A DNA stretch of 16,620 nucleotides from Octopus sinensis (taxonomy: Eukaryota): assembly GCF_006345805.1 (NCBI RefSeq), contig NW_021825143.1:1-16620 (forward strand). Reading direction: 5' to 3'. This document shows, one piece after another, positions 1 to 16,370 of this stretch. Positions within the stretch are counted from its first letter, which is position 1. Every line of letters begins with the position of its first letter. The notes below the pieces were generated by a model. The model worked only from the letters and a program-made list of their open reading frames with translations, was not told where the DNA came from and made no database searches. Made by a program: the position numbers and the translations under genes.

Positions 1-82
1 ACAGATAGATAGATACAAGTATGTATGTATGTGTACATGTGTGTGTGTGTGTGTACAAATATACAAACACACATACATATAT
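1..82. repeat. Compound microsatellite (GATA)n/(GTAT)n/(GT)n/(AC)n
   Basis: Directly visible simple repeats. Confidence 0.85.
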
Positions 83-628
83 GGAGTGGCTGTGTGGTAA
101 GTAGCTTGCTAACCAACCACATGGTTCCGGGTTCAGTCCCACTGCGTGGCATCTTGGGCAAGTGTCTTCTGCTATAGCCCCGGGCCGACCAATGCCTTGT
201 GAGTGGATTTGGTAGACGGAAACTGAAAGAAGCCTGTCGTATATATGTATATGTATATAGGCGCAAGAGTGGCTGTGGTATGTAGCTTGCTAACCAACCA
301 CATGGCTCCGGGTTCAGTCCCACTGCGTGGCACCTTGGGTGGCACCTTGGGTAAGTGTCTTCTACTATAGCCTCGGGCCGACCAATGCCGTGTGAGTGGA
401 TTTGGTAGACGGAAACTGAAAGAAGCCCATCATATATATATATATATAGGCATAGGAGTGGCTGTGAGGTAAGTAGCTTGCTAACCAACCACATGGTTCC
501 GGTTCAGTCCCACTGGCGTGGCACCTTCGGCAAGTGTCTTCTACTATAGCCCCGCCCCGGGCCGACCAATGCCTTGTGAGTGGATTTGGTAGACGGAAAC
601 TGAAGAAGCCCGTCGTATATATGTATAT

Positions 629-696
<68 letters not shown>

Positions 697-1554: not shown

Positions 1555-1933
1555 AGCACTCTGTCGGTTACGACGATGAGGGTTCCAGTTGATCCGATCA
1601 ACGGAACAGCCTGCTCGTGGAATTAACGTGCAATTGGCTAAGCACTCCACAGACCACGTGTACCCTTAACGTAGTCTCGGGGATATTCAGCGTGACCGGA
1701 GAGTGACAAGGGCCGCCCTTGAAATACAGGTACAACAAACAGGAATAAGGAAGAGTGAGAGAAAGTTGTGGTGAAAGAGTACAGCAGGGTTCACCACCTC
1801 CCCTTTCGGAGCCTCGTGGAGGCTTTAGGTGTTTTTTCGCTCAATAAACACTCACAACGCCCGGTCTGTTAATCGAAACCGCGATCCTATGACCGCGAGT
1901 CCGCTGCCCTAACCACTGGGCCATTGCGCCTCC
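1555..1933 (-). mobile_element. Full-length tRNA-derived SINE (about 380 bp), sister family of the V-like SINE
   Basis: The minus strand starts GGAGGCGCAATGGCCCAGTGGTTAGGGCAG (A box) with GGTTTCGATT (B-box-like). The head and middle match 14542-14720, but the 3' half differs. Confidence 0.8.
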
Positions 1934-2016: not shown

Positions 2017-2030
2017 GTTATCTTTATTTA

Positions 2031-3381
2031 GGCGGCGAGCTTGCAGAAACGTTAGCACGCCGGGCGAAATTCTTAGCGGTATTTCGTCTGCCGTACGTTC
2101 TGAGTTCAAATTCCGCCGAGGTCAACTTTGCCTTTCATCCTTTCGGGGTTGATTAAATAAGTACCAGTCACGCACTGGGGGTTGATATAATCGCCTTAAT
2201 CCGTTTGTCTGTCCTTGTTTGTCCTCTCTGTGTTTAGCCCCTTGTGGGTAGTAAAGAAATAGGTATTTTGTCTGCCGCTACGTTCTGAGTTCAAATTCCG
2301 CCGAGGTCAACTTTTATCTTTCATCTTTTCGGGGTCGATTAAATAAGTACCAGTCACGCACTGGGGGTTGATATATCGAATTAATCCGTTTGTCTGTCCT
2401 TCTTTGTCCTCTCTGTGTTTTTAGACCCTTGTGGGTAGTAAAGAATAGAAATAGGTATTTCGTCTGCTGTTACGTCCCTGAGTTCAAATTCCGCCGAGAT
2501 CGACTTGCCTTTCATCCTTTCGGGGTCGATTAAATAAGTACCAGTCACCCACTGGGGTCGATATAATCGACTTAATCCCTTTGTCTGTCTTTGTTGTCAC
2601 CTCTGTGTTTAGCCCCTTGTGGGTAGTAAAGAAATAGGTATTTCTTCTGCCGTTAATGTTCTTGGGTTCAAATTCCGCCGAGGTCGACTTTGCCTTTCCT
2701 CCTTTCGGGGTCGATTAAATAAGTACCAGTTACCCACTGGGGTCGATGTAATCGACCTTAAACCATTTGTCTGTCCTTGTTGTCCTCTCTGTGTTTAGCC
2801 CCTTCTGGGTAGTAAAGAAATAGGTATTTCGTCTGCTGTTACGTCCTGAGTTCACATTCCGCCCGAGGTCGACTTTGCCTTTCATTCAATCATTTCGGGG
2901 TTGACTTAAATAAAGTACCAGTTACGCACTGGGGTCGATGTAATCGACTTAATCCGTTTGTCTGTCCTTGTTTGTCCCCTCTGTGTTTAGCCCCTTGTGG
3001 GTAGTAAAGAAATAGGTATTTCGTCTGCCGTTAAGTGTTCTGGGTTCAAATTCCGCCGATCGACTTTGCCTTTCATCCTTTTCGGGATCGTAAATTAAGT
3101 ACCAGTTACGCACTGGGTCGATGTAAATCGACTTAATCCTTTGTCTGTCCTTGTTTGTCCCCTCTGTGTTTAGGCCCTTGTGGGTAGTAAAGAAATAAGT
3201 ATTTCGTCTGCCGTTAAGTGTTCTGGTTCAAATTCCGCCGAGGTCGACTTTGCCTTCCATCCTTTCGGATCGATAAATTAAGTACCAGTTACGCACTGAG
3301 GTCTATGTATCGACTTAATCCCTTTGTCTGTCCTTGTTTGTCCCCTCTGTGTTTAGCCCCCTTGTGGGTAGTAAAGAAATA
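2031..3381 (+). repeat. Meta-like SINE multimer: one tRNA-derived head plus 7 tandem bodies of about 186 bp
   Basis: Head GGCGGCGAGCTTGCAGAAACGTTAGCACGCCGGGCGAAAT... occurs once. Units start GTATTTCGTCTG at about 2079, 2263, 2455, 2638, 2824, 3016 and 3199. Each unit has B box GTTCAAATTCC and GCCTTTCATCCTTTCGGGGTCGAT..AAGTACCAG, resembling the Meta-SINE domain. Confidence 0.9.
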
Positions 3382-3897
3382 ATATATACACATATGATGG
3401 CTATTCCTCACGACTGAGGAAACCATCGACGGTCTTTAACAGCATCGTACACACAGACAGAATTATACTTACACTGTGGTCCCCACTGAATGACAAATGA
3501 TTCCAGCTCTTTATAAACATTCTTTCTTCTTTATTCCTTAACCCTCCAGCGCGGAGTGTAGCCACATATAGTTGAATTTCATGTCGCATAATTCTTTGCT
3601 CTTGTACTTATACTCTGCCATGTATGTCCCTTTTCTCTAGTTCCTTATGTGTTAATCTCCGCCACGAGTTCTTCTTAGGGCTAACTCTTCTTCTATATGC
3701 AACCCGGTTTCCACTTAAAGCACTTTTTGCTATATTTGGTGTGTCTTTTTTCTTGTGCCTTTAACCCTCCCAACGCTGAGTATAGGCCACTTATGTCCCC
3801 CCTTTCTCTAGTTCCTTTTGTGTTGATCTCCGCCACGAGTTCTTAGGCCTAACTCTCCTTCTATAATCCAACCGTTTTCCACTTTAAAGCACTTTTC

Positions 3898-4597: not shown

Positions 4598-4719
4598 TGT
4601 AGAAACACTGCCAGATAAGAATGGAACCTGGTGGCAGCCTCCTGGCTTCCCAGACCCCGGTCGAACCGTCCAACCTATGCTAGCATGGAAACGGACGTTA
4701 AACGAAGATAGATGATATA

Positions 4720-4774
<55 letters not shown>

Positions 4775-5300
4775 CATGTAGCACCCACTACACTCACGGA
4801 GTGGTTGGTGTTAGGAAGGGCATCAAGCTGTAAAACTCTGCCGCCAGATTCAGACTGGGGCCTGGTGCAGCCTTCTGGCTTCCCAGACCCCAGTCAATCC
4901 CGTCTAACCTTTGCTATCATGGAAAACGTACGTTAAACGATGATATTATATGTTAGCACTCACTACACTCTTGGAGTGGTTGCGTTAGGAAGGGCATCCA
5001 GCGTAGAAACCCTGCCAGATCAGACTGGGGCCTGGTGGCAGCCTTCTGGCATCCCAGATCCCCCCCGTCGAACCGTCCAACCCACGCTAGCATGGAAAGC
5101 GGACGTTAAACGATGATATGATGATATATATATATATCACGGAGTGGTTGGCGTTAAAGGGCATCCAGCTGTAGAAACAATGCCAGATCTACTGGGGCCT
5201 GGTGCAGCCTCGGGCATCCCAGACCCTGGTCGAACCGTCGAACCCACGCTAGCAAGGGAAGCGGACGTTAAACGATGATATGATATGATATATTTATATA

Positions 5301-5347
<47 letters not shown>

Positions 5348-5521
5348 GTAGCACCCTACACTCACGGAGTGTTGGCGTTAGAAGGAAGGGCTTCCAGCTG
5401 TAGAAACCTTCTGCCAGATCTGACTGGGGCTTGGTGCAGCCTCTGGCATCCCAGACCTTGGTCGAACCGTCCAAACTATGCTAGCATGGAAAACGGACGT
5501 TAACGATGATAAATAATATAG

Positions 5522-5563
<42 letters not shown>

Positions 5564-5790
5564 ATATATATATATTCTATATATATTATATATTATAGTA
5601 TATTATATATATATATATGTATATGTAGCACCCAACACTCACGGAGTGGGTGGGGTTAGGAAGGTCATCAAGCTGTAGAACACTGCCAGATCACACTGGG
5701 GCCTGGTGCAGCCCCCCCCTCCTGTTTCCAAAACCTCAGTCGAACCGTCCAACCCGTGCTAGCACGGAAACGCATTAACGATGGTGGATG
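4598..5790 (+). repeat. Six tandem copies of a retroposon 3' segment of about 170 bp (RTE-like tail), mostly separated by (TA)n tracts
   Basis: Unit GTAGCACCCACTACACTCACGGAGTGGTTGGCGTTAGGAAGGGCATCCAGCTGTAGAAAC...GCTAGCATGGAAAGCGGACGTTAAACGATGAT at about 4598 (truncated), 4777, 4952, 5137, 5347 and 5623. The GTTAGGAAGGGCATCC motif and (GAT)n tail suggest RTE dependence (inference). Confidence 0.8.
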
Positions 5791-6172
5791 ATGATGATGG
5801 TGATGGTGATGGTGATGTTAATAATAATAATGAGGATTATGATGAAATGATGATGATGACGATGATGATGATTATGATGACGATGATAATACGACGACGA
5901 CGATTATGACAGACGATGATGACGATGATACGATGAAGACGATGATGATGATTATGATGATTATGATTATGATGATGATGATGACGAATGATGATGATGA
6001 TGATGATTCTGTGGTTGATGAACGATGATTATGATGATGATGATGATGATGATGTTGATGAGGATGAGGATGATGAGGAATGATGACGATTGATGATTAT
6101 TGATGATTATGATGATGATGATGATGACGACGACGACGACGAGATGACGATGATGATGATGACAATGATGAT
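5782..6172 (+). repeat. Imperfect (GAT/GAC)n trinucleotide tract of about 390 bp
   Basis: Directly visible and contiguous with the GATGAT tail of the last upstream element copy. Confidence 0.95.
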
Positions 6173-6362: not shown

Positions 6363-6376
6363 TAAGTGTTTTATAT
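6363..6376 (+). other. Left target-site duplication of the 8.15-kb SINE array (overlaps the splice donor)
   Basis: TAAGTGTTTTATAT here versus TAAGTGTTTATAT at 14531-14543 (one T fewer in the homopolymer). Confidence 0.8.
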
Positions 6377-6377
6377 A

Positions 6378-9300
6378 TATTTCTTTACTACCCCACAAAG
6401 GCTAAACACAGAGGGGACAAACAAGACAGACAAACGGATTAAGTCGTTACATAGACCCCAGTGCGAAACTGGTACTTAATTTATCGACCCCGAAAGGATG
6501 AAAGGCAAAGTCGACCTCGGCGGAATTTGAACCCAGAACACTTAACGGCAGACGAAATACCTATTTCTTTACTACCCACAAGGGATAAACACAGAGGGGA
6601 CAAACAAGGACAGACAAAGGATTAAGTCGATTACATCGACCCCAGTGCGTAACTGGTACTTAATTTATCGACCCCGAAAGGATGAAAGGCAAAGTGGACC
6701 TGGCGGAATTGGCACCAGACGTAGCGGAGGCGCCTTGACTTCTCTCTACAGTACCAATTTACTACCCACAAGGGGAAAACACAGAGGGGACAACAAGGAC
6801 AGACAAAGGGATTAAGTCGATTACATAGACGCCAGTGCGTAACTGGTACTTAATATATCGACCCCGAAGGATGAAAGGCAAAGTGGACCTCGGCGGATTT
6901 GAACCGAGAACACTTAACGCCAGACGAAATACCTATTTCTTTACTACCACACAAGGGGCTAACAAGAGGGGACAAACAAGGACAGACAAAGGGATTAAGT
7001 CGATTACATAGACCCCAGTGCGTAACTGGTTACTTAATTTTCGACCCCGAAAGGATGGAAGGCAAAGTCGACCTCGGGCGGAATTTGAACCCAGAACACT
7101 TAACGGCAGAACGAAATACCTATTTTCTTTACTACCCCAGGGATAAACACAGAGGAGACAAACAAGGACAGACAAATGGATTAAGTCGATTACATAGACC
7201 TCAGTGCGTAACTGGTACTTAATTTATCGAGCCCCGAAAGGTGAAGGCAAGTAGTGACCTCGCGGAATTTGAACCCAGAACACTTAACGGCAGACGAAAG
7301 CTATTTCTTTACTACACACAAGGGTCTAAACACAGAGGAGACAAACAGGACAGACAAAGGGATTAAGTCGATTACATCGACCCCAGTGCGTAAGTGGTAC
7401 TTTAATTTATCGACCCCGAAAGGATGAAAGGCAAAGTGACCTCGGCGGAATTGAAACCGAGAACACTTACGGCAGACGAAATACCTATTTCTTTACTACC
7501 CACAAGGGGCTAAACACAGAGGAGACAAACAAGGACAGACAAGGATTAAGAAGTCGATTACATAGACCCCAGTGCGTAACTGGTACTTAATTTATCGACC
7601 CCGAAAGGATGGAAAGGCAAGTCGACCTCGGCGGAATTTGAACCCAGAACACTTAACGGCAGACGAAATACCTATTTCTTTCTACGCACAAGGGGCTAAA
7701 CACAGAGAAGGACAAACAAGGACAGACAAGGTATTAAGTCGATTACATAGACCTCAGTGCGTAACTGGTACTTAATTTATCGATCCCGAAGGATGAAAGC
7801 AAAGTCGATCGGCGGAATTTGAACCCAGAACACTTAACGGCAGACGAAATACCTATTTCTTTACTACCCACAAGGGGCTAAACACAGAGGGGACAAACAA
7901 GGACAGACAAAGGGATTAAGTCGATTACAATAGACCTCAGTGCGTAACTGGTAGTTAATTTATCGATCCCGAAAGCATGAAAGGCAAAGTCGATCGGCGG
8001 AATTTGAACCCAGAACACTTAAACGGCAGACGAATACCTATTTTTCTTACTACCCACAAGGGCTAAACACAGAGGGGACAAACCAGGACAGACAAAGGAT
8101 TACGTCGATTACAAAGACCCAGTGCGTACTGGTACTTAATTAATCGATCCCGAAAGGATGGAAGGCATGTCGACCTCGGCGGAATTTGAACCAAGAACAC
8201 TTAACGCAGAACGAAATACTTATTTATTTACTACCCACAAAGGGCTAAACACAGAGGGGACAAACAAGGACAGACAAAGGTATTAAGTCGATTACAATCG
8301 ACCCAGTGCGTAACTGGTACTTAATTTATCGAATCCAAATGATGAAGGCAAAGTCGATCGGCGGAATTTGAACCCATAACACTTAACGGCAGACAAATAC
8401 TATTTCTTTACTACCACAAGAGGCTAAACACAGAGGGGACAAACAAGGACAGACAAGGATAAGTCGATTACATAGACCTCAGTGCGTAACTGGTACTTAT
8501 TTATCGACCCCGAAACGATGAAAGGCAAAAGTCGATCGGCGGAATTTGAACCCAGAAACTTAACACGGCAGACGAAATACCTATTTCTTTTACTACCCCC
8601 CCAAGGGCTAAACACAGAGGGGACAAACAAGGACAGACAAAGGGATTAAGTCGTTACATCGACCCCAGTGCGAACTGGTACTTAATTTATCGACCCCGAA
8701 AGATGTAAGGCAAAGTCGACCTCGGCGGAATTTGAACCCAGAACACTTAACGGCAGACGAATACCTATTTTTCTTTACTACCCACAAGGGGAAAAACACA
8801 GAGGGCAAACAAGGACAGACAAAGGGATTAAGTCGATTACATAGACCTCAGTGCGTAACTGGTACTTAATTTATCGACCCCGAAAGGATGAATGGCAAAG
8901 TCGATCGGCGGAATTTGAACCCAGAACACTTAACGGCAGACGAAATACCTATTTCTTTACTACCCACAAGGGGCTAAACCAGAGGAGACAAACAGGACAG
9001 ACAAAGGGATTAAGTCGATTACATCTCGACGCCAGTGCGTAACTGGTACTTAATATATCGACCCCGAAAGGATGAAAGGCAAAGTGGACCTCGGCGGAAT
9101 TTGAACCGAGAACACTTAACGGCAGACGAAATACCTATTTCTTTACTACCCACAAGGGGCTAAACACAGAGGGGACAAACAAGGACAGACAAAGGGATTA
9201 AGTCGATTACATAGACCCCAGTGCGTAACTGGTACTTAATTTATCGACCCCGAAAGGATGGAAGGCAAAGTCGACCTCGGCGGAATTTGAACCCAGAACA

Positions 9301-12300
9301 CTTAACGGCAGACGAAATACCTATTTCTTTACTACCCACAAGGGGATAAACACAGAGGAGACAAACAAGGACAGACAAATGGATTAAGTCGATTACATAG
9401 ACCTCAGTGCGTAACTGGTACTTAATTTATCGACCCCGAAAGGATGAAAGGCAAGTGGACCTCGGCGGAATTTGAACCAGAACACTTAACCGGCAGACGA
9501 AATACTTATTTCTTTACTACACACAAGGGGCTAAACACAGAGGAGACAACAAGGACAGACAAAGGGATTAAGTCGATTACATCGACCCCAGTGCGTAAGT
9601 GGTACTTAATTTATCGACCCCGAAAGGATGAAAGGCAAGTGGACCTCGGCGGAATTTGAACCGAGAACACTTAACGGCAGACGAAATACCTATTTCTTTA
9701 CTACCCACAAGGGCTAAACACAGAGAGACAAACAAGGACAGACAAAGGGATTAATCGATTACATAGACCCCAGTGCGTAACTGGTACTTAATTTATCGAC
9801 CCCGAAAGGATGGAAGGCAAAGTCGACCTCGGCGGAATTTGAACCCAGAACACTTAACGGCAGACGAAATACCTATTTCTTTACTACGCACAAGGGGCTA
9901 AACACAGAGAGGACAAACAAGGACAGACAAAGGTATTAAGTCGATTACATAGACCTCAGTGCGTAACTGGTACTTAATTTATCGATCCCGAAAGGATGAA
10001 AGGCAAAGTCGATCGGCGGAATTTGAACCCAGAACACTTAACGGCAGACGAAATACCTATTTCTTTACTACCCACAAGGGGCTAAACACAGAGGGGACAA
10101 ACAAGGACAGACAAAGGGATTAAGTCGATTACATAGACCTCAGTGCGTAACTGGTAGTTAATTTATCGATCCCGAAAGCATGAAAGGCAAAGTCGATCGG
10201 CGGAATTTGAACCCAGAACACTTAACGGCAGACGAAATACCTATTTCTTTACTACCCACAAGGGGCTAAACACAGAGGGGACAAACAAGGACAGACAAAG
10301 GGATTAAGTCGATTACAAAGACGCCAGTGCGTAACTGGTACTTAATTTATCGATCCCGAAAGGATGGAAGGCAATGTCGACCTCGGCGGAATTTGAACCA
10401 AGAACACTTAACGGCAGACGAAATACTTATTTATTTACTACCCACAAGGGGCTAAACACAGAGGGGACAAACAAGGACAGACAAAGGGATTAAGTCGATT
10501 ACATCGACCCCAGTGCGTAACTGGTACTTAATTTATCGATCCCGAAAGGATGAAAGGCAAAGTCGATCGGCGGAATTTGAACCCAGAACACTTAACGGCA
10601 GACGAAATACCTATTTCTTTACTACCCACAAGAGGCTAAACACAGAGGGGACAAACAAGGACAGACAAAGGGATTAAGTCGATTACATAGACCTCAGTGC
10701 GTAACTGGTATTTAATTTATCGACCCCGAAACGATGAAAGGCAAAGTCGATCGGCGGAATTTGAACCCAGAACACTTAACGACGGCAGACGAAATACCTA
10801 TTTCTTTACTACTACCCACAAGGGGCTAAACACAGAGGGGACAAACAAGGACAGACAAAGGGATTAAGTCGGTTACATCGACCCCAGTGCGAAACTGGTA
10901 CTTAATTTATCGACCCCGAAAGGATGTAAGGCAAAGTCGACCTCGGCGGAATTTGAACCCAGAACACTTAACGGCAGACGAAATACCTATTTCTTTACTA
11001 CCCACAAGGGGAAAAACACAGAGGGGACAAACAAGGACAGACAAAGGGATTAAGTCGATTACATAGACCTCAGTGCGTAACTGGTACTTAATTTATCGAC
11101 CCCGAAAGGATGAATGGCAAAGTCGATCGGCGGAATTTGAACCCAAACACTTAACGGCAGACGAAATACTTATTTCTTTACTACTCACAAGGGCTAAACA
11201 CAGAGGAGACAAACGGACAGACAAAGGGATTAAGTCGATTACATCGACGCCATGCGTAACTGGTACTTATTAATTTATCGACGCCGAAAGGATGAAAGCA
11301 AAGTGGACCTCGGCGGAATTTGAACCCAGAACACTTAACGGCAGACGAATACCTATTTCTTTACTACCCACAAGGGGCTAAACACAGAGAGACAAACAAG
11401 GACAGATAAAGGGATTAAGTCGATTACATCGACCCCAGTGCGTAACTGGTACTTAATTTATCGACCCCGAAAGGATGAAAGGCAAAGTCGACCTCGGCGG
11501 AATTTGAACCGAGAACACTTAACGGCAGACGAAAACCTATTTCTTTACTACCCACAAGGGCTAAACAGAGGAGGCAAACAAGACAGACAAAGGGATTAAG
11601 TCGATTACATAGACCCCAGTGCGTAACTGGTACTTAATTTATCGACCCCGAAAGGATGGAAGGCAATGTCGACCTCGGCGGAATTTGAACCCAGAACACT
11701 TAACGGCAGACGAAATACCTATTTCTGTAATACCCACAAGGGGCTAAACACAGAGAGGACAAACAAGGACAGTCAAAGGTATTAAGTCGATTACATAGAC
11801 CTCAGTGCGTAACTGGTACTTAATTTATCGATCCCGTAAGGATGAAAGGCAAAGTTAATCGGCGGAATTTGAACCCAGAACACTTAACGGCAGACGAAAT
11901 ACCTATTTCTTTACTACCCACAAGGGGCTAAACCCAGAGGGACAAACAAGGACAGACAAAGGGATTAAGTCGATACATAGACCTCAGTGCGTAACTGGTA
12001 CTTAATTTATCGACCCCGAAAGGATGAAGGCAAAGTCGATCGGCGGAATTTGAACCCAGAACACTTAACGGCAGACGAAATACCTATTTCTTTACTACCC
12101 ACAAGGGGCTAAACACAGAGGGGACAAACAAGGAGACAAAGGGATTAAGTCGATTACATCGACCCCAGTGCGAAACTGGTACTTAATTTATCGACCCCGA
12201 AAGGATGAAAGGCAAAGTCGACCTCGGCGGAATTTGAACCCAGAACACTTAACGGCAGACGAAATACCTATTTCTTTACTACCCACAAGGGGATCAACAC

Positions 12301-14530
12301 AGAGGGGACAAACAAGGACAGACAAAGGGATTAAGTCGATTACATAGACCTCAGTGCGTAACTGGTACTTAATTTATCGACCCCGAAAGGATGAAAGGCA
12401 AAGTCGATCGGCGGAATTTGAACCCAGAACACTTAACGGCAGACGAAATACTTATTTCTTTACTACTCACAAGGGGCTAAACACAGAGGAGACAAACAAG
12501 GACAGACAAAGGGATTAAGTCGATTACATCGACCCCAGTGCGTCACTGGCACTTAATTTATCGACCCCGAAAGGATGAAAGGCAAAGTGGACCTCGGCGG
12601 AATTTGAACCCAGAACACTTAACGGCAGACGAAATACCTATTTCTTTACTACCCACAAGGGGCTAAACACAGAGGAGACAAACAAGGACAGACAAAGGGA
12701 TTAAGTCGATTACATCGACCCCAGTGCGTAACTGGTACTTAATTTATCGACCCCGAAAGGATGAAAGGCAAAGTGGACCTCGGCGGAATTTGAACCGAGA
12801 ACACTTAACGGCAGACGAAATACCTATTTCTTTACTACCCACAAGGGGCTAAACACAGAGGAGACAAACAAGGACAGACAAAGGGATTAAGTCGATTACA
12901 TAGACCCCAGTGCGTAACTGGTACTTAATTTATCGACCCCGAAAGGATGGAAGGCAAAGTCGACCTCGGCGGAATTTGAACCCAGAACACTTAACGGCAG
13001 ACGAAATACCTATTTCTTTACTACCCACAAGCTGCTAAACACAGAGAGGACAAACAAGGACAGACAAAGGTATTAAGTCGATTACATAGACCTCAGTGCG
13101 TAACTGGTAGTTAATTTATCGATCCCGAAAACATGAAAGGCAAAGTCGATCGGCGGAATTTGAACCCAGAACACTTAACGGCAGACGAAATACCTATTTC
13201 TTTACTACCCACAAGGGGCTAAACACAGAGGGGACAAACAAGGACAGACAAAGGGATTAAGTCGATTACATAGACCTCAGTGGTTAACTGGTACTTAATT
13301 TATCGATCCCGAAGTTTGGAAGGAAAAGTCGACCTCGGCGGAAGTTGAACCCAGAACTTAAACGGCAGACGAATACTTTATTTCTTTACTACCCACAAGG
13401 GGCTAAACACAGAGAGGATAAACAAGGACAGACAAAGGGATTAAGTCGATTACATCGACCCCAGTGCGTAACTGGTACTTAATTTATCGATCCCGAAAGG
13501 ATGAAAGGCAAAGTCGATCGGCGGAATTTGAACCCAGAACACTTAACTGCAGACGAAATACCTATTTCTTTACTACCCACAAGGGGCTAAACACAGAGGG
13601 GACAAACAAGGACAGACAAAGGGATTAAGTCGATTACATAGACCTCAGTGCGTGACTGGTACTTAATTTATCGACCCCGAAATGATGAAAGGCAAAGTCG
13701 ATCGGCGGAATTTGAACCCAGAACACTTAACGGCAGACGAAATACCTATTTCTTTACTACCCACAAGGGGCTAAACACAGAGGGGACAAACAAGGACAGA
13801 CAAAGGGATTAAGTCGATTACATCGACCCCAGTGCGAAACTGGTACTTAATTTATCGACCCCGAAAGGATGAAAGCAAAGTCGACCTCGGCGGAATTTGA
13901 ACCCAGAACACTTAACGGCAGACGAAATACCTATTTCTTTACTACCCACAAGGGGCTAAACACAGAGGGGACAAACAAGGACAGACAAAGGGATTAATCG
14001 ATTACATCGACCCCAGTGCGTAACTGGTACTTATTTATCGATCCCGAAAGTGGAAGGCAAAGTCGACCTCGGCGGAATTTGAACCCAGAACACTTAACGG
14101 CAGACGAAATACCTATTCTTTACTACCCACAGGGGCTAAACACAGGGGACAAACAAGGACAGATAAACGGATTAAGTCGATTACATCGACCCCAGTGCGT
14201 AACTGGTACTTAATTTATCGACCCCGAAAGGATGAAAGGCAAAGCGGACCTCGGCTGAATTTGAACCCAGAACACTTAACGGCAGACGAAATACCTATTT
14301 CTTTACTACCCACAAGGAGCTAAACACAAAGGGGACAAACAAGGACAGACAAAGGGATTAAGTCGATTACATCGACCCCAGTGCGTAACTGGTACTTAAT
14401 TCATCGACCCCGAAAGGATGGAAGGCAAATCGACCTCTGCGGAATTTGAACCCAGAACACTTAACGACAGACGAAATACGGCTACGCATTTCGCCCGGCG
14501 TGCTAACCATTCTGCCAGCTCGCCGCCTTC
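6378..14530 (-). repeat. Meta-like SINE-derived satellite: one tRNA head (about 14479-14530) plus 44 tandem bodies of 184-186 bp
   Basis: The + strand consensus TATTTCTTTACTACCCACAAGGGGCTAAAC...GAACACTTAACGGCAGACGAAATACC is 186 nt, and 44 unit starts were counted by eye. It is the reverse complement of the 2031-3381 unit. The head GGCGGCGAGCTGGCAGAATGGTTAGCACGCCGGGCG is present only at the right end. Confidence 0.95.
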
Positions 14531-14543
14531 TAAGTGTTTATAT
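14531..14543 (+). other. Right target-site duplication of the 8.15-kb SINE array
   Basis: TAAGTGTTTATAT matches 6363-6376. Confidence 0.8.
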
Positions 14544-14792
14544 GGCCTAGTGGTTAGAGCAGCAGACTAGTGGTCGTGGGATCGCAGGTTCGAATCTCAG
14601 ACTGGGCGACGTGTGTGTTTATGATCGAAAACACCTAAGCTCCACGCGGCTCCGGCAGAAGGTAATGGCAAAACTTCTGCTGACTCTTTCGCCACAACTT
14701 TCTCTCACTCTTTCCTCCTGCATCTTGCAGCTCACCTGCGATGGACTGGCGTCCCGTCCAGGTGGGGAACCTATACGCCGAGGAAACTGGGA
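14542..14792 (+). mobile_element. tRNA-derived V-like SINE, 3'-truncated
   Basis: A box TGGCCTAGTGG and B box GGTTCGAATCTC. CCTGCGATGGACTGGCGTCCCGTCCAGG resembles the V-SINE domain. Confidence 0.8.
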
Positions 14793-15406: not shown

Positions 15407-15761
15407 AGGGGTAGGAGTGGCTGTGTGGTAAGTAGCTTGCTTACCAGCCACGTGGTTCCGGGTTCAGTCCTACTGCGTGGCACCTTGGGCAAGTGTCTTC
15501 TACTATAGCCTCGGGCCGACCAAAGCCTTGTGAGTGGATTTAGTAGACGGAAACTGAAAGAAGCCCGTCGTATATATGTATATAGGCGTAGGAGTGGCTG
15601 TGTGGTATGTCTCTTGCTTACCAACCACATGGGTCGGGTTCAGTCCCACTGCGTGGCATCTCGGGCAAGTGTCTTCTGCTATAGCCCGCGCCGACGACTA
15701 ATGCCTTGTGAGTGGATTTGGTAGACGGGTACTGAAAGAAGGCTGTTGTATATATAATATA

Positions 15762-15792
<31 letters not shown>

Positions 15793-16370
15793 GCGCAGGA
15801 GTGGCTGTGTGGTAAGTAGCTTGCTTACCAACCACATGGCTGGTTCTGGGTTCAGTCCCACTGTATGGCACCTTGGGCAATTGTCTTCTACTATAGCCTC
15901 GGGCGACCCCAAAGCCTTGTGAGTGGACTTAGTAGACGGAAACTGAAAGAAGCCCGTCGTATATATGTATATAGGCGTAGGAGTGGCTGTGTCGTATGTC
16001 TCTTGCTTACCAACAAAATGGGTCGGGTTCAGTCTCACTGCGTGGCACCTTGGGCAAGTGTCTTCTACTATAGCCTCGGGCCGACCAATGCCTTGTGAGT
16101 GAATTTGGCAGACGGAAACTGAAAGAAGCCTGTCGTATATATGTATATATATATGTGTGTATATGTGTTTGTGTGTCTGTGTTTGTCCCCCTAGCATTGC
16201 TTGACAACCGATGCTGGTGTGTTTACGTCCCCGTAAATTAGCGGTTCGGCAAAAGACACCGATAGAATAAGTACTGGGCTTACAAAGAATAAGTCCCGGG
16301 GTCGATTTGCTCGACTAAAAAGGCGGTGCTCCAGCATGGCCGCAGTCAAATGACTGAAACAAGTAAAGAC
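15407..16370 (+). mobile_element. Tandem cluster of the CORE-like SINE: three 5' halves (about 15407, 15584, 15792) plus one full-length copy (about 15974-16370)
   Basis: Same sequence as 83-915, with units joined through (TA)n. Possible degenerate TSD: AAGTCACATCAACC (15391) and AAGTCAGATAACC (16372). Confidence 0.9.

What the first reader, a model, noticed from the sequence alone, without database searches (positions are those of the whole stretch)
2031..3381. Fixed, structure-defined multimer junction suggesting RNA-level concatemerisation (template jumping or circular SINE RNA)
Seen: both arrays use the same tail-to-body junction, ...AAAGAAATAG|GTATTTCGTC..., which is itself an inverted repeat (GAAATA-GG-TATTTC). 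In the head, the same TATTTCG is the 3' arm of a stem-loop in the anticodon-arm position (CGAAATGC-GTAGCC-GTATTTCG in the head at 14473-14494). The SINE's 3' terminus GAAATA therefore mimics the 5' arm and could pair next to the re-entry point. Inference: RT jumping from this stem back to the 3' end, or loop cleavage and ligation into a 186-nt circle copied by rolling-circle RT (retrozyme-like, but with no ribozyme seen), could generate head+(body)n elements. A simpler alternative is one ancestral dimer master later expanded at the DNA level.
Basis: partly seen in the sequence, partly recalled or inferred. Interest (0 to 1): 0.75.

Follow-up and report, generated by a model that had tools for sequence, protein, structure and literature searches.

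The report
SINE multimers seeded by self-targeted insertion
The repeated tail-to-body joint in these short mobile elements is real and is found across the genome, but it sits at a GGTAT motif in the element's own head where one subfamily inserts into resident copies, so the multimers were likely built by nested insertion and copying of the composites, and the window's large array grew by DNA-level duplication, not from RNA circles.

Summary
Both window arrays are head+(body)n forms of a 235-nt tRNA-like SINE. The joint GAAATA-G-GTATTTCG (tail to position 50/51) recurs genome-wide: 35 of 40 inter-unit joints in an arbitrary 1.2 Mb sample.

The RNA reading is not needed:
- Copies with a TAG or TAA tail insert at GGTAT target sites: 18 of 33 have flanks starting GGT, against 0 of 25 for CAA/CAG tails. 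Older heads carry GGTAT at position 50.
- At least 14 loci are nested insertions: [host head 1-~63][full copy][host 50-end], with 11-23 bp target-site duplications starting at G50.
- Units upstream of this joint are almost only TAG-tailed (30 of 35; CAA 0).
- The two units of a dimer are not each other's closest relatives, which argues against circles or cis jumps.
- No ribozyme was found, and tail and arm show no covariation.
- The 44-unit array has a 12-unit higher-order repeat and shares its flank with five other arrays, so it grew at the DNA level.

A trans template switch onto a second SINE RNA remains a live minority rival.

This is a new variant of known SINE-derived satellites and multimeric SINEs, of moderate interest.

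The parts
2030..2261 (+). Array 1: head-bearing first element (family positions 2-235; head about 2030-2077)
   Evidence: nhmmer with the family model; sequence
2263..3381 (+). Array 1: six further body units (positions 51-235 each). The 5' units are of the old type; units 6-7 are of the young type seen in array 2.
   Evidence: TRF
2256..2270 (+). First tail-to-body junction: GAAATA-G-GTATTTTG
14296..14529 (-). Array 2: head-bearing first element (positions 1-235)
14472..14493 (-). Head stem-loop CGAAATGC-GTAGCC-GTATTTCG. The repeat unit starts at the first base of the 3' arm.
   Evidence: the MFE fold was run on the family-consensus head, not on this window head
6378..14294 (-). Array 2: 43 further body units
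8950..11169 (-). Array 2, units 19-30: first copy of a 12-unit higher-order block
   Evidence: Variant patterns of units 19-30 recur in units 31-42; identity peaks at lag 12 (0.929 against 0.909-0.921 at other lags)
6758..8948 (-). Array 2, units 31-42: second copy of the 12-unit block
14530..14542 (-). Upstream copy of the target-site duplication of array 2 (TATAAACACTTAG)
   Evidence: Read. Its partner lies at 6363-6377. The same flank precedes five other arrays.
6363..6377 (-). Downstream copy of the target-site duplication of array 2 (TATAAAACACTTACC)
   Evidence: Read; it differs from the upstream copy by one extra A and the last base

Best explanation
The fixed junction is where the 3' end of one copy of a 235-nt tRNA-like SINE abuts position 50 of another copy. 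Nested insertions at GGTAT sites demonstrably create this joint. The dispersed multimers are likely descendants of such nested copies, and the window's 44-unit array grew by DNA-level duplication (for the 7-unit array this is inferred).

Shown:
(1) The family has monomers of head 1-50 plus body 51-235, ending ...AAAGAAATA, flanked by target-site duplications (TSDs).
(2) Copies whose tail reads GGG-TAG/TAA-TAAAGAAATA integrate at targets that begin GGTAT. CAA-tailed and young copies use TATA or AGAA-like targets.
(3) Older heads read ...AGC-GGTATTTCG at positions 50-58. TAG-type copies are found inserted exactly there in resident copies, giving [host 1-~63][full copy ...GAAATA][G50-host remainder], with an 11-23 bp TSD that starts at G50.
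(4) Multi-unit elements are flanked as wholes by TSDs.
(5) The 44-unit array carries a 12-unit higher-order repeat and shares more than 1 kb of upstream flank with five other arrays.

Inferred:
- Pol III transcription from the inner head of a nested locus would give head+body+(50-end of host) RNAs. These would retrotranspose through the host's tail and propagate as multimers.
- Each new landing in a head would add units.
- Unequal crossing-over changes unit number.

Unresolved: whether the GGTAT preference comes from the endonuclease, or from pairing of the nicked target with a GGUAU read-through extension of the RNA.
For: Target preference. The 3' flanks start GGT in 14 of 26 TAG-tailed and 4 of 7 TAA-tailed terminal units, against 0 of 21 CAA and 0 of 4 CAG (Fisher p 2e-6). 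One TAG row, L141, is an edge artefact. Fifteen of the 18 GGT flanks match a copy upstream of the head at 9-10 of 10 bases, so they are true TSDs. GGTAT has a background frequency of 0.00075 per position and strand.

Upstream units. Units that precede a position-50 joint are TAG 30, TAA 2, CAG 2, GAG 1 and CAA 0 of 35. Monomers are TAG 21, CAA 16, TAA 7 and CAG 4 (p 5e-5). In the larger set the upstream units are TAG 83 and CAA 0 of 94.

Nested insertions. The pattern 'orphan head end + new head' gives 58 exact hits and 0 in the reversed control, in about 38 distinct loci. Of 18 loci examined, 14-15 show the nested structure with TSDs of 11-23 bp from G50. At least 9 of these share host-private variants in both TSD copies. 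The arbitrary sample holds one such case, L035 1956-2322. About 0.7 would be expected, because 3.7% of GGTAT sites are GGTATTTCG.

The position-17 joint. It has a verified nested example: L183, with a CAA tail and TSD AGAAACGTTAGCA.

Whole multimers have TSDs, for example L016, L042, L082, L038 and L067 and L198, L204-L206, L209 and L210.

The young subfamily targets TAT (20 of 24 flanks). It has 0 dispersed multimers among 24 verified loci, against 28 of 70 in the arbitrary sample.

Unit numbers are 42, 23, 4, 0, 0 and 1 for one to six units. They fit a Poisson with mean 0.51, which corresponds to about 10-14 rounds at 3.7-5% per round.

DNA-level growth. Array 2 has a lag-12 higher-order repeat. 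The array flanks are homologous at 88-99%. Adjacent inner units of longer elements (three or more units) rank 1st-3rd as each other's relatives in 5 of 7 pairs.
Against: - 'Clean' TSD-flanked multimers outnumber in-situ nested loci 27 to 1 in the arbitrary sample. Most multimers therefore must have been copied as multimers, and that step is inferred, not shown.
- No diagnostic base separates first units from TAG monomers, or last CAA units from CAA monomers. The best p is 0.003, against a Bonferroni threshold of 0.00025.
- Last units are no more diverged than first units: 0.057 against 0.050, p 0.39.
- B-type last units are scattered among B monomers: 8 changes for 9 composites.
- All three of these results fit equally well with assembly anew at each event.
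- No active nested master locus was identified.
- The young arrays have C at head position 50 but G at every joint, so their founder was already multi-unit. Its origin is unexplained.
- The link between AGAA targets and the position-17 joint is weak: CAA flanks start AG in 5 of 21 against 1 of 26 for TAG, p 0.08.
Confidence: 0.62

Rival explanations
1. RNA-level trans template switch. While the reverse transcriptase copies a donor SINE RNA, the hairpin at positions 37-58 frees the cDNA end (...ATACC-3') at position 50. That end pairs with the GGUAU 3' extension of a second, TAG-type SINE RNA, and copying continues there. Clean multimers would then be made anew at many retrotransposition events.
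For: - The hairpin is in the MFE fold.
- Multimer units are indistinguishable from the monomer pools.
- Last units are not older than first units.
- B-type last units are scattered among B monomers.
- Clean multimers far outnumber nested loci, 27 to 1.
- Unit numbers also roughly fit a geometric series.
- The same primer/3'-end pairing rule would explain why only TAG/TAA types lie upstream.
Against: - It needs a switch in roughly 30% of events, within a 5-nt window.
- Solo copies that start at positions 49-52 are 2 of 271 chains.
- The same joint is demonstrably made by ordinary nested integration, and the observed numbers are reachable that way.
- There is no covariation between tail and arm.
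- No RNA evidence was obtainable: the runs were held as contigs only.
Confidence: 0.2
2. One ancestral dimer master. The junction arose once, by any accident. All multimers descend from it, and arrays expanded at the DNA level. The GGTAT target bias and the nested cases are secondary: internal priming on multimer RNA at the GGUAU of the next unit.
For: - The joint is invariant, including the extra G, in 32 of 35 cases, although heads have G50 in only 39 of 68.
- Upstream units cluster on a tree: 21 changes against 27.6 +/- 2.1 in shuffles, with 4 of 1000 shuffles as low.
- Some copies end with a few bases of a next unit and no clear TSD (L003; L036 and L061; L208).
Against: - At least 14 independent nested insertions recreate the joint with their own TSDs.
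- Downstream units come from at least three tail families (A, B1, B2) and do not cluster.
- In 15 of the 18 GGT-flanked copies the flank is matched upstream of the head at 9-10 of 10 bases, so the GGTAT in those copies is target DNA, not RNA-templated.
- Beyond 5 bases the match to the next unit falls to chance: lengths 5, 6 and 7 occur 8, 1 and 3 times.
Confidence: 0.1
3. Circular body RNA of about 185 nt, copied by rolling-circle reverse transcription (retrozyme-like), or a cis jump on a single RNA.
For: - Unit length is constant.
- The tail and the start of the body can pair.
- Tandem units of similar size exist in ribozyme-bearing retroelements (recalled from memory, not tested here).
Against: - No hammerhead or other ribozyme was found at E<=1 in the window.
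- Every array starts with a head and ends at the tail, not at a permuted point.
- Dimer units are not sisters.
- The second units include other families, with different tails.
- Array 2 has a 12-unit higher-order repeat.
- The young subfamily keeps both pairing partners yet forms no dispersed multimers, 0 of 24.
Confidence: 0.03

Closest known systems
SINE-derived satellites of squamate reptiles (Vassetzky et al. 2023, PMC10702118; abstract and Discussion read)
   Same: - Tandem repeats made from part of a SINE, with a longer terminal unit that reaches the SINE terminus.
- Units of 150-180 nt.
- Di- and trimeric alternation of units.
- Longer arrays are more homogeneous.
- The authors call the genesis 'nonrandom'.
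   Different: - That paper attributes the first duplication to unequal recombination or to insertion into the same locus, and names no defined site.
- Here the joint is a defined target motif in the SINE head.
- Nested insertions with TSDs are documented here, and short multimers are themselves TSD-flanked dispersed elements.
TSD1-(SINE)n-TSD1 arrays of the blood clam S. broughtonii (PMC11481361; passages read)
   Same: The first unit has a complete tRNA-related head, the middle units are truncated at a constant head position, the last unit has a complete tail, and the whole is flanked by one TSD.
   Different: - In the clam the inner units also lack part of the tail.
- The mechanism proposed there is unequal recombination between TSDs.
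- No target-motif explanation is given.
Dimeric and multimeric SINEs such as Alu and the Dip/B1 multimers of jerboas (as cited in the Discussion of PMC10702118; the primary papers were not read)
   Same: Composite SINEs that amplify as units, and frequent multimers produced by insertion next to or into resident copies.
   Different: - Those multimers join full-length units, often through A-rich tails.
- Here the downstream unit always lacks head positions 1-49, because the insertion site lies inside the head.
Retrozymes and metazoan ribozyme-bearing tandem repeats (recalled from memory; only the listing of review PMC11722881 was seen)
   Same: Non-autonomous retroelements with tandem units of roughly 150-400 nt.
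   Different: No self-cleaving ribozyme was found. The units within an element are not identical-by-origin. Heads and TSDs are present.
Chimeric retrocopies made by LINE RT template switching, such as U6-L1 chimeras (PMC4476161; search listing only, otherwise recalled)
   Same: Two RNAs joined 3'-end-to-internal-site and flanked by one TSD. This is the model behind the main rival explanation.
   Different: Known cases are rare per event and have variable junctions. Here the junction is invariant and the multimer share is 40%.

Membership tests
tRNA-derived SINE | tRNA-related head with internal Pol III A and B boxes | tested here: inconclusive
   ARAGORN finds no tRNA, and Rfam tRNA gives no hit at E<=1. 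By eye the head has TGGCAGAATGG (A-box-like) and GGTTCAAATTCC (B-box-like); these motifs are recalled, not scored. The body units keep the B-box-like part only.
tRNA-derived SINE | Short, non-coding, dispersed in many copies, and flanked by target-site duplications | tested here: met
   The element is 235 nt. There are 3275 first-look candidates and 311 hits in 1.2 Mb. TSDs are clear in most of the 24 monomers and in the arbitrary sample.
tRNA-derived SINE | 3' tail shared with a partner LINE | not tested
   No partner LINE was sought. A 3' hairpin with a constant CTTGT loop and compensatory stems across tail types was seen by eye.
SINE-derived satellite | Tandem units from part of a SINE, with an extended terminal unit | tested here: met
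   Window arrays of 7 and 44 units, and five further arrays.
SINE-derived satellite | DNA-level amplification and homogenisation (higher-order repeats, shared loci) | tested here: met
   12-unit higher-order repeat, and flanks homologous at 88-99%.
Retrozyme-like circular RNA element | Self-cleaving (hammerhead) ribozyme in each unit | tested here: not met
   The Rfam E-value scan of the whole window gives 11 weak matches, all to microRNA-family models at 1-93, 608-703 and 4709-4785 and none inside either array, and no ribozyme.
Retrozyme-like circular RNA element | Circular RNA of unit length | not testable with these tools
   The RNA runs found are held as contigs only. They show no starts, ends or expression levels.
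Rolling-circle or cis-jump concatemer | Units of one element are copies of one template and so are each other's closest relatives | tested here: not met
   In 11 of 13 first/last pairs the partner ranks 19th-89th of 92. Second units may belong to other tail families.
Nested (self-targeted) TPRT insertion | Host copy split at the joint, with a duplication of host sequence on both sides of the insert | tested here: met
   14-15 of 18 loci, with TSDs of 11-23 bp from G50. At least 9 carry host-private variants in both copies. L035 is a case in the arbitrary sample.
Nested (self-targeted) TPRT insertion | The same target motif is used outside SINE copies | tested here: met
   GGT(AT)-initial TSDs in 18 of 33 TAG/TAA-tailed terminal units, 15 of them verified upstream.
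RT template-switch chimera | The junction forms without a DNA-level intermediate | not testable with these tools
   Sequence data fit both readings. A de novo retrotransposition assay is needed.

The most novel reading that the evidence does not exclude
A hairpin in the tRNA-like head hands the growing cDNA over to the GGUAU-ended 3' terminus of a second SINE RNA in roughly one retrotransposition event in three. SINE multimers and SINE-seeded satellites would then be written at the RNA level by programmed strand transfer, akin to retroviral strand transfer.
Probability: 0.18. Interest if true: 0.75.

Novelty: new variant of a known kind. Interest (0 to 1): 0.45.

Why it matters
SINE-derived satellites and head+(body)n arrays have been described in reptiles and bivalves. 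In those reports the first duplication is left to chance recombination, although one of them calls the process 'nonrandom'.

Here the first step has a concrete and testable cause. A subfamily's integration motif (GGTAT) lies inside the SINE's own head. A few percent of its insertions therefore land in resident copies and create a transcribable head+body+body unit, always with the same joint. That gives a route from an interspersed repeat to a multimer and then to a satellite.

It would also explain why multimers are 40% of this family, and why a younger subfamily with a different target motif makes none.

It also shows that a neat RNA-structure coincidence at a repeat junction can be a by-product of target choice.

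Tried and rejected
- **RNA and DNA runs.** Twenty runs hold the stretch. All RNA or 'RNA?' runs are Logan contigs, which give no starts, ends or expression levels. Only 12 raw DNA reads were laid. Contig loose ends after the tail read GGTATTTCG... as well as TATATA. This says the joint exists in other data sets and nothing about circles.
- **Mantel-type correlation between first-unit and second-unit distances among 20 dimers.** r is 0.59 with p 0.001, but the result is confounded by element age, so it was not used.
- **Divergence of last against first units, column-wise allele tests and clustering of composite B units.** None separates nested masters from RNA-level assembly.
- **Position-17 pattern.** There are 26 hits. 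Of the 6 loci examined, only L183 is a clean nested case. L181, L184, L185 and L186 have an orphan head fragment but no host remainder after the insert.
- **Repeated insertion of 5'-truncated copies at the 3' end of resident copies.** Rejected: there is no TSD or filler between units, and solo copies starting at positions 49-52 are 2 of 271.
- **The search of earlier findings** returned nothing for this genome.
- **Papers.** Two searches and two papers read in part found no description of this family or of a target-motif origin of SINE multimers. Ohshima and Okada 1994 and Akasaki 2010 are recalled and were not available. Supplements were not opened.

Full report
**What is in the window**

The window is G000:C1614:1-16620 of a 2.72 Gb genome in 13,516 contigs.

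TRF finds a 7-copy array of period 183 at 2078-3381. It also scores as period 376. A 44-copy array of period 184 lies at 6378-14479.

A family model places a head-bearing element at 2030-2261 (+), followed by six body units. A second head-bearing element lies at 14529-14296 (-), followed by 43 body units.

Both arrays end ...AAAGAAATA and are followed by TA-rich DNA. Units are joined as GAAATA-G-GTATTTCG.

It appears in the MFE fold of the family-consensus head. The small GAAAUA/UAUUUC hairpin appears in the fold of a junction built from consensus pieces.

ARAGORN finds no tRNA. An Rfam E-value scan finds only 11 weak matches to microRNA-family models, none inside either array, and no ribozyme.

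**The family**

A genome search with head plus first unit gave 3275 first-look candidates, of which 40 were scored.

Of the 30 loci fetched:
- 24 are 235-nt monomers (head 1-50, body 51-235), most with clear TSDs. Their flanks start TAT in 20 of 24.
- 6 are long arrays, including the window's.
- One locus holds an additional older dimer.

For an unbiased view I took 120 stretches of 10 kb at fixed coordinates on contigs C1-C20, 1.2 Mb in all. I annotated them with nhmmer, using a model built from the 24 monomers. This gave 311 hits in 271 chains.

Of 70 elements that begin with a full-length unit, 42 have one unit, 23 two, 4 three and 1 six.

Non-first units start at model position 51 or 52 (34 cases), 49 (1), 17 (4) or 1 (1).

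The extra base is G in 32 of the 35, although heads carry G at position 50 in only 39 of 68.

Related families share the head and core 1-~178 but have other tails, here called B1 and B2. They occur as the last unit of composites.

**The large arrays are DNA-level products**

The six young arrays share more than 1 kb of upstream flank at 88-99% identity, including the bases next to the head. They are therefore paralogues of one insertion.

Array 2 is flanked by TATAAACACTTA-like duplications.

Mean identity among its 44 units peaks at lag 12 (0.929, against 0.909-0.921 at other lags). Units 19-30 repeat, variant for variant, as units 31-42.

Array 1 mixes old-type units at its 5' side with young-type units at its 3' side.

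**What fixes the junction**

Tails fall into types at model positions 223-225 (GGG-xxx-TAAAGAAATA).

Units that precede a position-50 joint are TAG in 30, TAA in 2, CAG in 2, GAG in 1 and CAA in 0 of 35. Monomers are TAG 21, CAA 16, TAA 7 and CAG 4 (p 5e-5). The last 10 bases are the same in TAG and CAA types, so pairing of GAAATA with TATTTC cannot be what selects the upstream unit.

The flank just after the tail starts GGT in 14 of 26 TAG and 4 of 7 TAA terminal units, against 0 of 21 CAA and 0 of 4 CAG (p 2e-6). One TAG row, L141, is an edge artefact.

In 15 of these 18 the flank is matched at 9-10 of 10 bases just upstream of the head. It is therefore a TSD, and the target itself began GGTAT.

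GGTAT occurs at 0.00075 per position and strand. The match to the next-unit sequence stops at five bases about as chance predicts: lengths 5, 6 and 7 occur 8, 1 and 3 times.

Older heads read AGC-GGTATTTCG at positions 47-58. The joint 'tail + GGTATTTCG' is therefore 'tail + preferred target'.

**Direct evidence for nested integration**

In the arbitrary sample, L035 1956-2322 reads [2-63] TT [1-235] G [51-121]. Both copies of host positions 50-63 carry the same private variant.

A genome-wide exact pattern for 'end of an orphan head followed by a new head' gives 58 hits and 0 in the reversed control, in about 38 loci.

Of 18 loci analysed, 14-15 have [host 1-60..71][full element ...GAAATA][G50... 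host remainder], with duplications of 11-23 bp that start at G50. At least 9 share host-specific substitutions or deletions in both copies.

The inserted elements have TAG (12) or TAA (3) tails.

The host remainder may have an A-type tail or end near position 170-192 as B-family units do, and the insert may itself be a tetramer (L202).

GGTATTTCG makes up 3.7% of GGTAT sites. About 0.7 nested cases are therefore expected among the 18 GGT-type events sampled, and one was seen.

Some nested loci have grown arrays of heads alone, with a period of 63-67 nt.

For the position-17 class, one of the 6 loci examined is a clean nested insertion of a CAA-tailed copy with TSD AGAAACGTTAGCA (L183). The other five were ambiguous.

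**From nested copies to dispersed multimers (inferred)**

Whole multimers carry TSDs, so they moved as units or were assembled during one insertion.

The two units of a dimer are usually not close relatives: the partner ranks 19th-89th of 92 in 11 of 13 pairs. Adjacent inner units of longer elements rank 1st-3rd in 5 of 7 pairs. This excludes copying one RNA twice. It fits 'one subfamily inserted into another', followed by local duplication.

The young subfamily keeps both the GAAATA tail and the hairpin arm, but it targets TAT and has no dispersed multimers: 0 of 24 against 28 of 70, p 6e-5.

A landing chance of 3.7-5% per round over 10-14 rounds gives the observed mean of 0.51 extra units, and the counts fit a Poisson distribution.

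**What stays open**

- Clean multimers outnumber nested loci 27 to 1.
- First units cannot be told apart from TAG monomers, nor last CAA units from CAA monomers.
- Last units are not older than first units.
- Composite B units are scattered among B monomers.

These results fit multimers that breed as multimers in many lineages. They equally fit a trans strand transfer of the cDNA, at the hairpin, onto the GGUAU-extended 3' end of a second TAG-type RNA. I put that rival at about 0.2. It needs a very high switch rate in a 5-nt window, and solo copies starting at positions 49-52 are only 2 of 271.

Tail and arm show no covariation: 193 cells unchanged, 4 broken, 1 G-U, 0 compensatory and 12 gaps.

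Public runs gave no usable RNA evidence.

**Comparison with known systems, and verdict**

Head+(body)n arrays are described for squamate SINE-derived satellites (PMC10702118; abstract and Discussion read). They are also described for a clam, as TSD1-(SINE)n-TSD1 (PMC11481361; passages read). Both leave the first duplication to recombination or repeated insertion.

Here the first step has a defined site and cause.

The finding is real. The circle and cis-jump readings fail. The junction is best read as a self-targeted integration site. This is a new variant of a known kind, of moderate interest.

Noticed in passing
window 83-639, 4794-5575, 15571-16149: Short tandem arrays (2-3 copies, periods 162-232) of at least one other SINE-like family, starting GGAGTGGCTGTG... 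They are separated or flanked by (TA)n. Tandem clustering of SINEs seems general in this genome.
   Followed up: no
window about 1840-1930 (+) and 14545-14640 (- view): A different tRNA-like repeat lies in reverse orientation just upstream of both array heads. For array 2 it is part of the flank shared with five other arrays. For array 1 the similarity is only that of a common repeat (78%).
   Followed up: partly
window 6726-6757 and unit 43 (6562-6725): Between units 42 and 43 of array 2 the regular joint is replaced by about 32 unrelated bases, and unit 43 matches only from model position 65.
   Followed up: no
window 5787-6172: A (GAT)n microsatellite of 128 copies lies between the arrays.
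   Followed up: no
G000 C1:195358953-195359248, C7:15322782-15323082, C18:40399007-40399172, C3430:1375-2210: Tandem arrays made of SINE heads alone (model 1-63/65, period 65-67 nt), each ending in a full element. They are the mirror image of the body arrays and likely arose from nested loci by unequal crossing-over.
   Followed up: partly
G000 C10381:37342-37971 and C9071:33901-34098: Micro-arrays of 26-32 nt made of the first ~28 bases of the head.
   Followed up: no
3' tails of the family: window 3351-3381, and loci: A small hairpin with a constant loop CTTGT has stems CCC/GGG (tail A), GGC/GCC (B1, B2) and GCC/GGC (some B2). These are compensatory changes, which suggests a conserved recognition hairpin for the partner LINE. 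Seen by eye only.
   Followed up: no
L126 (G000 C16:52000001-52010000), about 2697-3440: A TAG-type copy is inserted in the body of another copy at a GGTAT created by mutation of TTTCGGGGTCGAT, with TSD GGTATCGATAAAATAAGT. The motif, not the head context, attracts the insertion.
   Followed up: partly
L003 (G000 C17:43264075-43264309 and flank): A young-type monomer is followed by GGTATTTCGT and then unrelated DNA, with no clear TSD. This could be reverse transcription started 10 nt into a next unit of a multimer RNA, or a deleted dimer.
   Followed up: no
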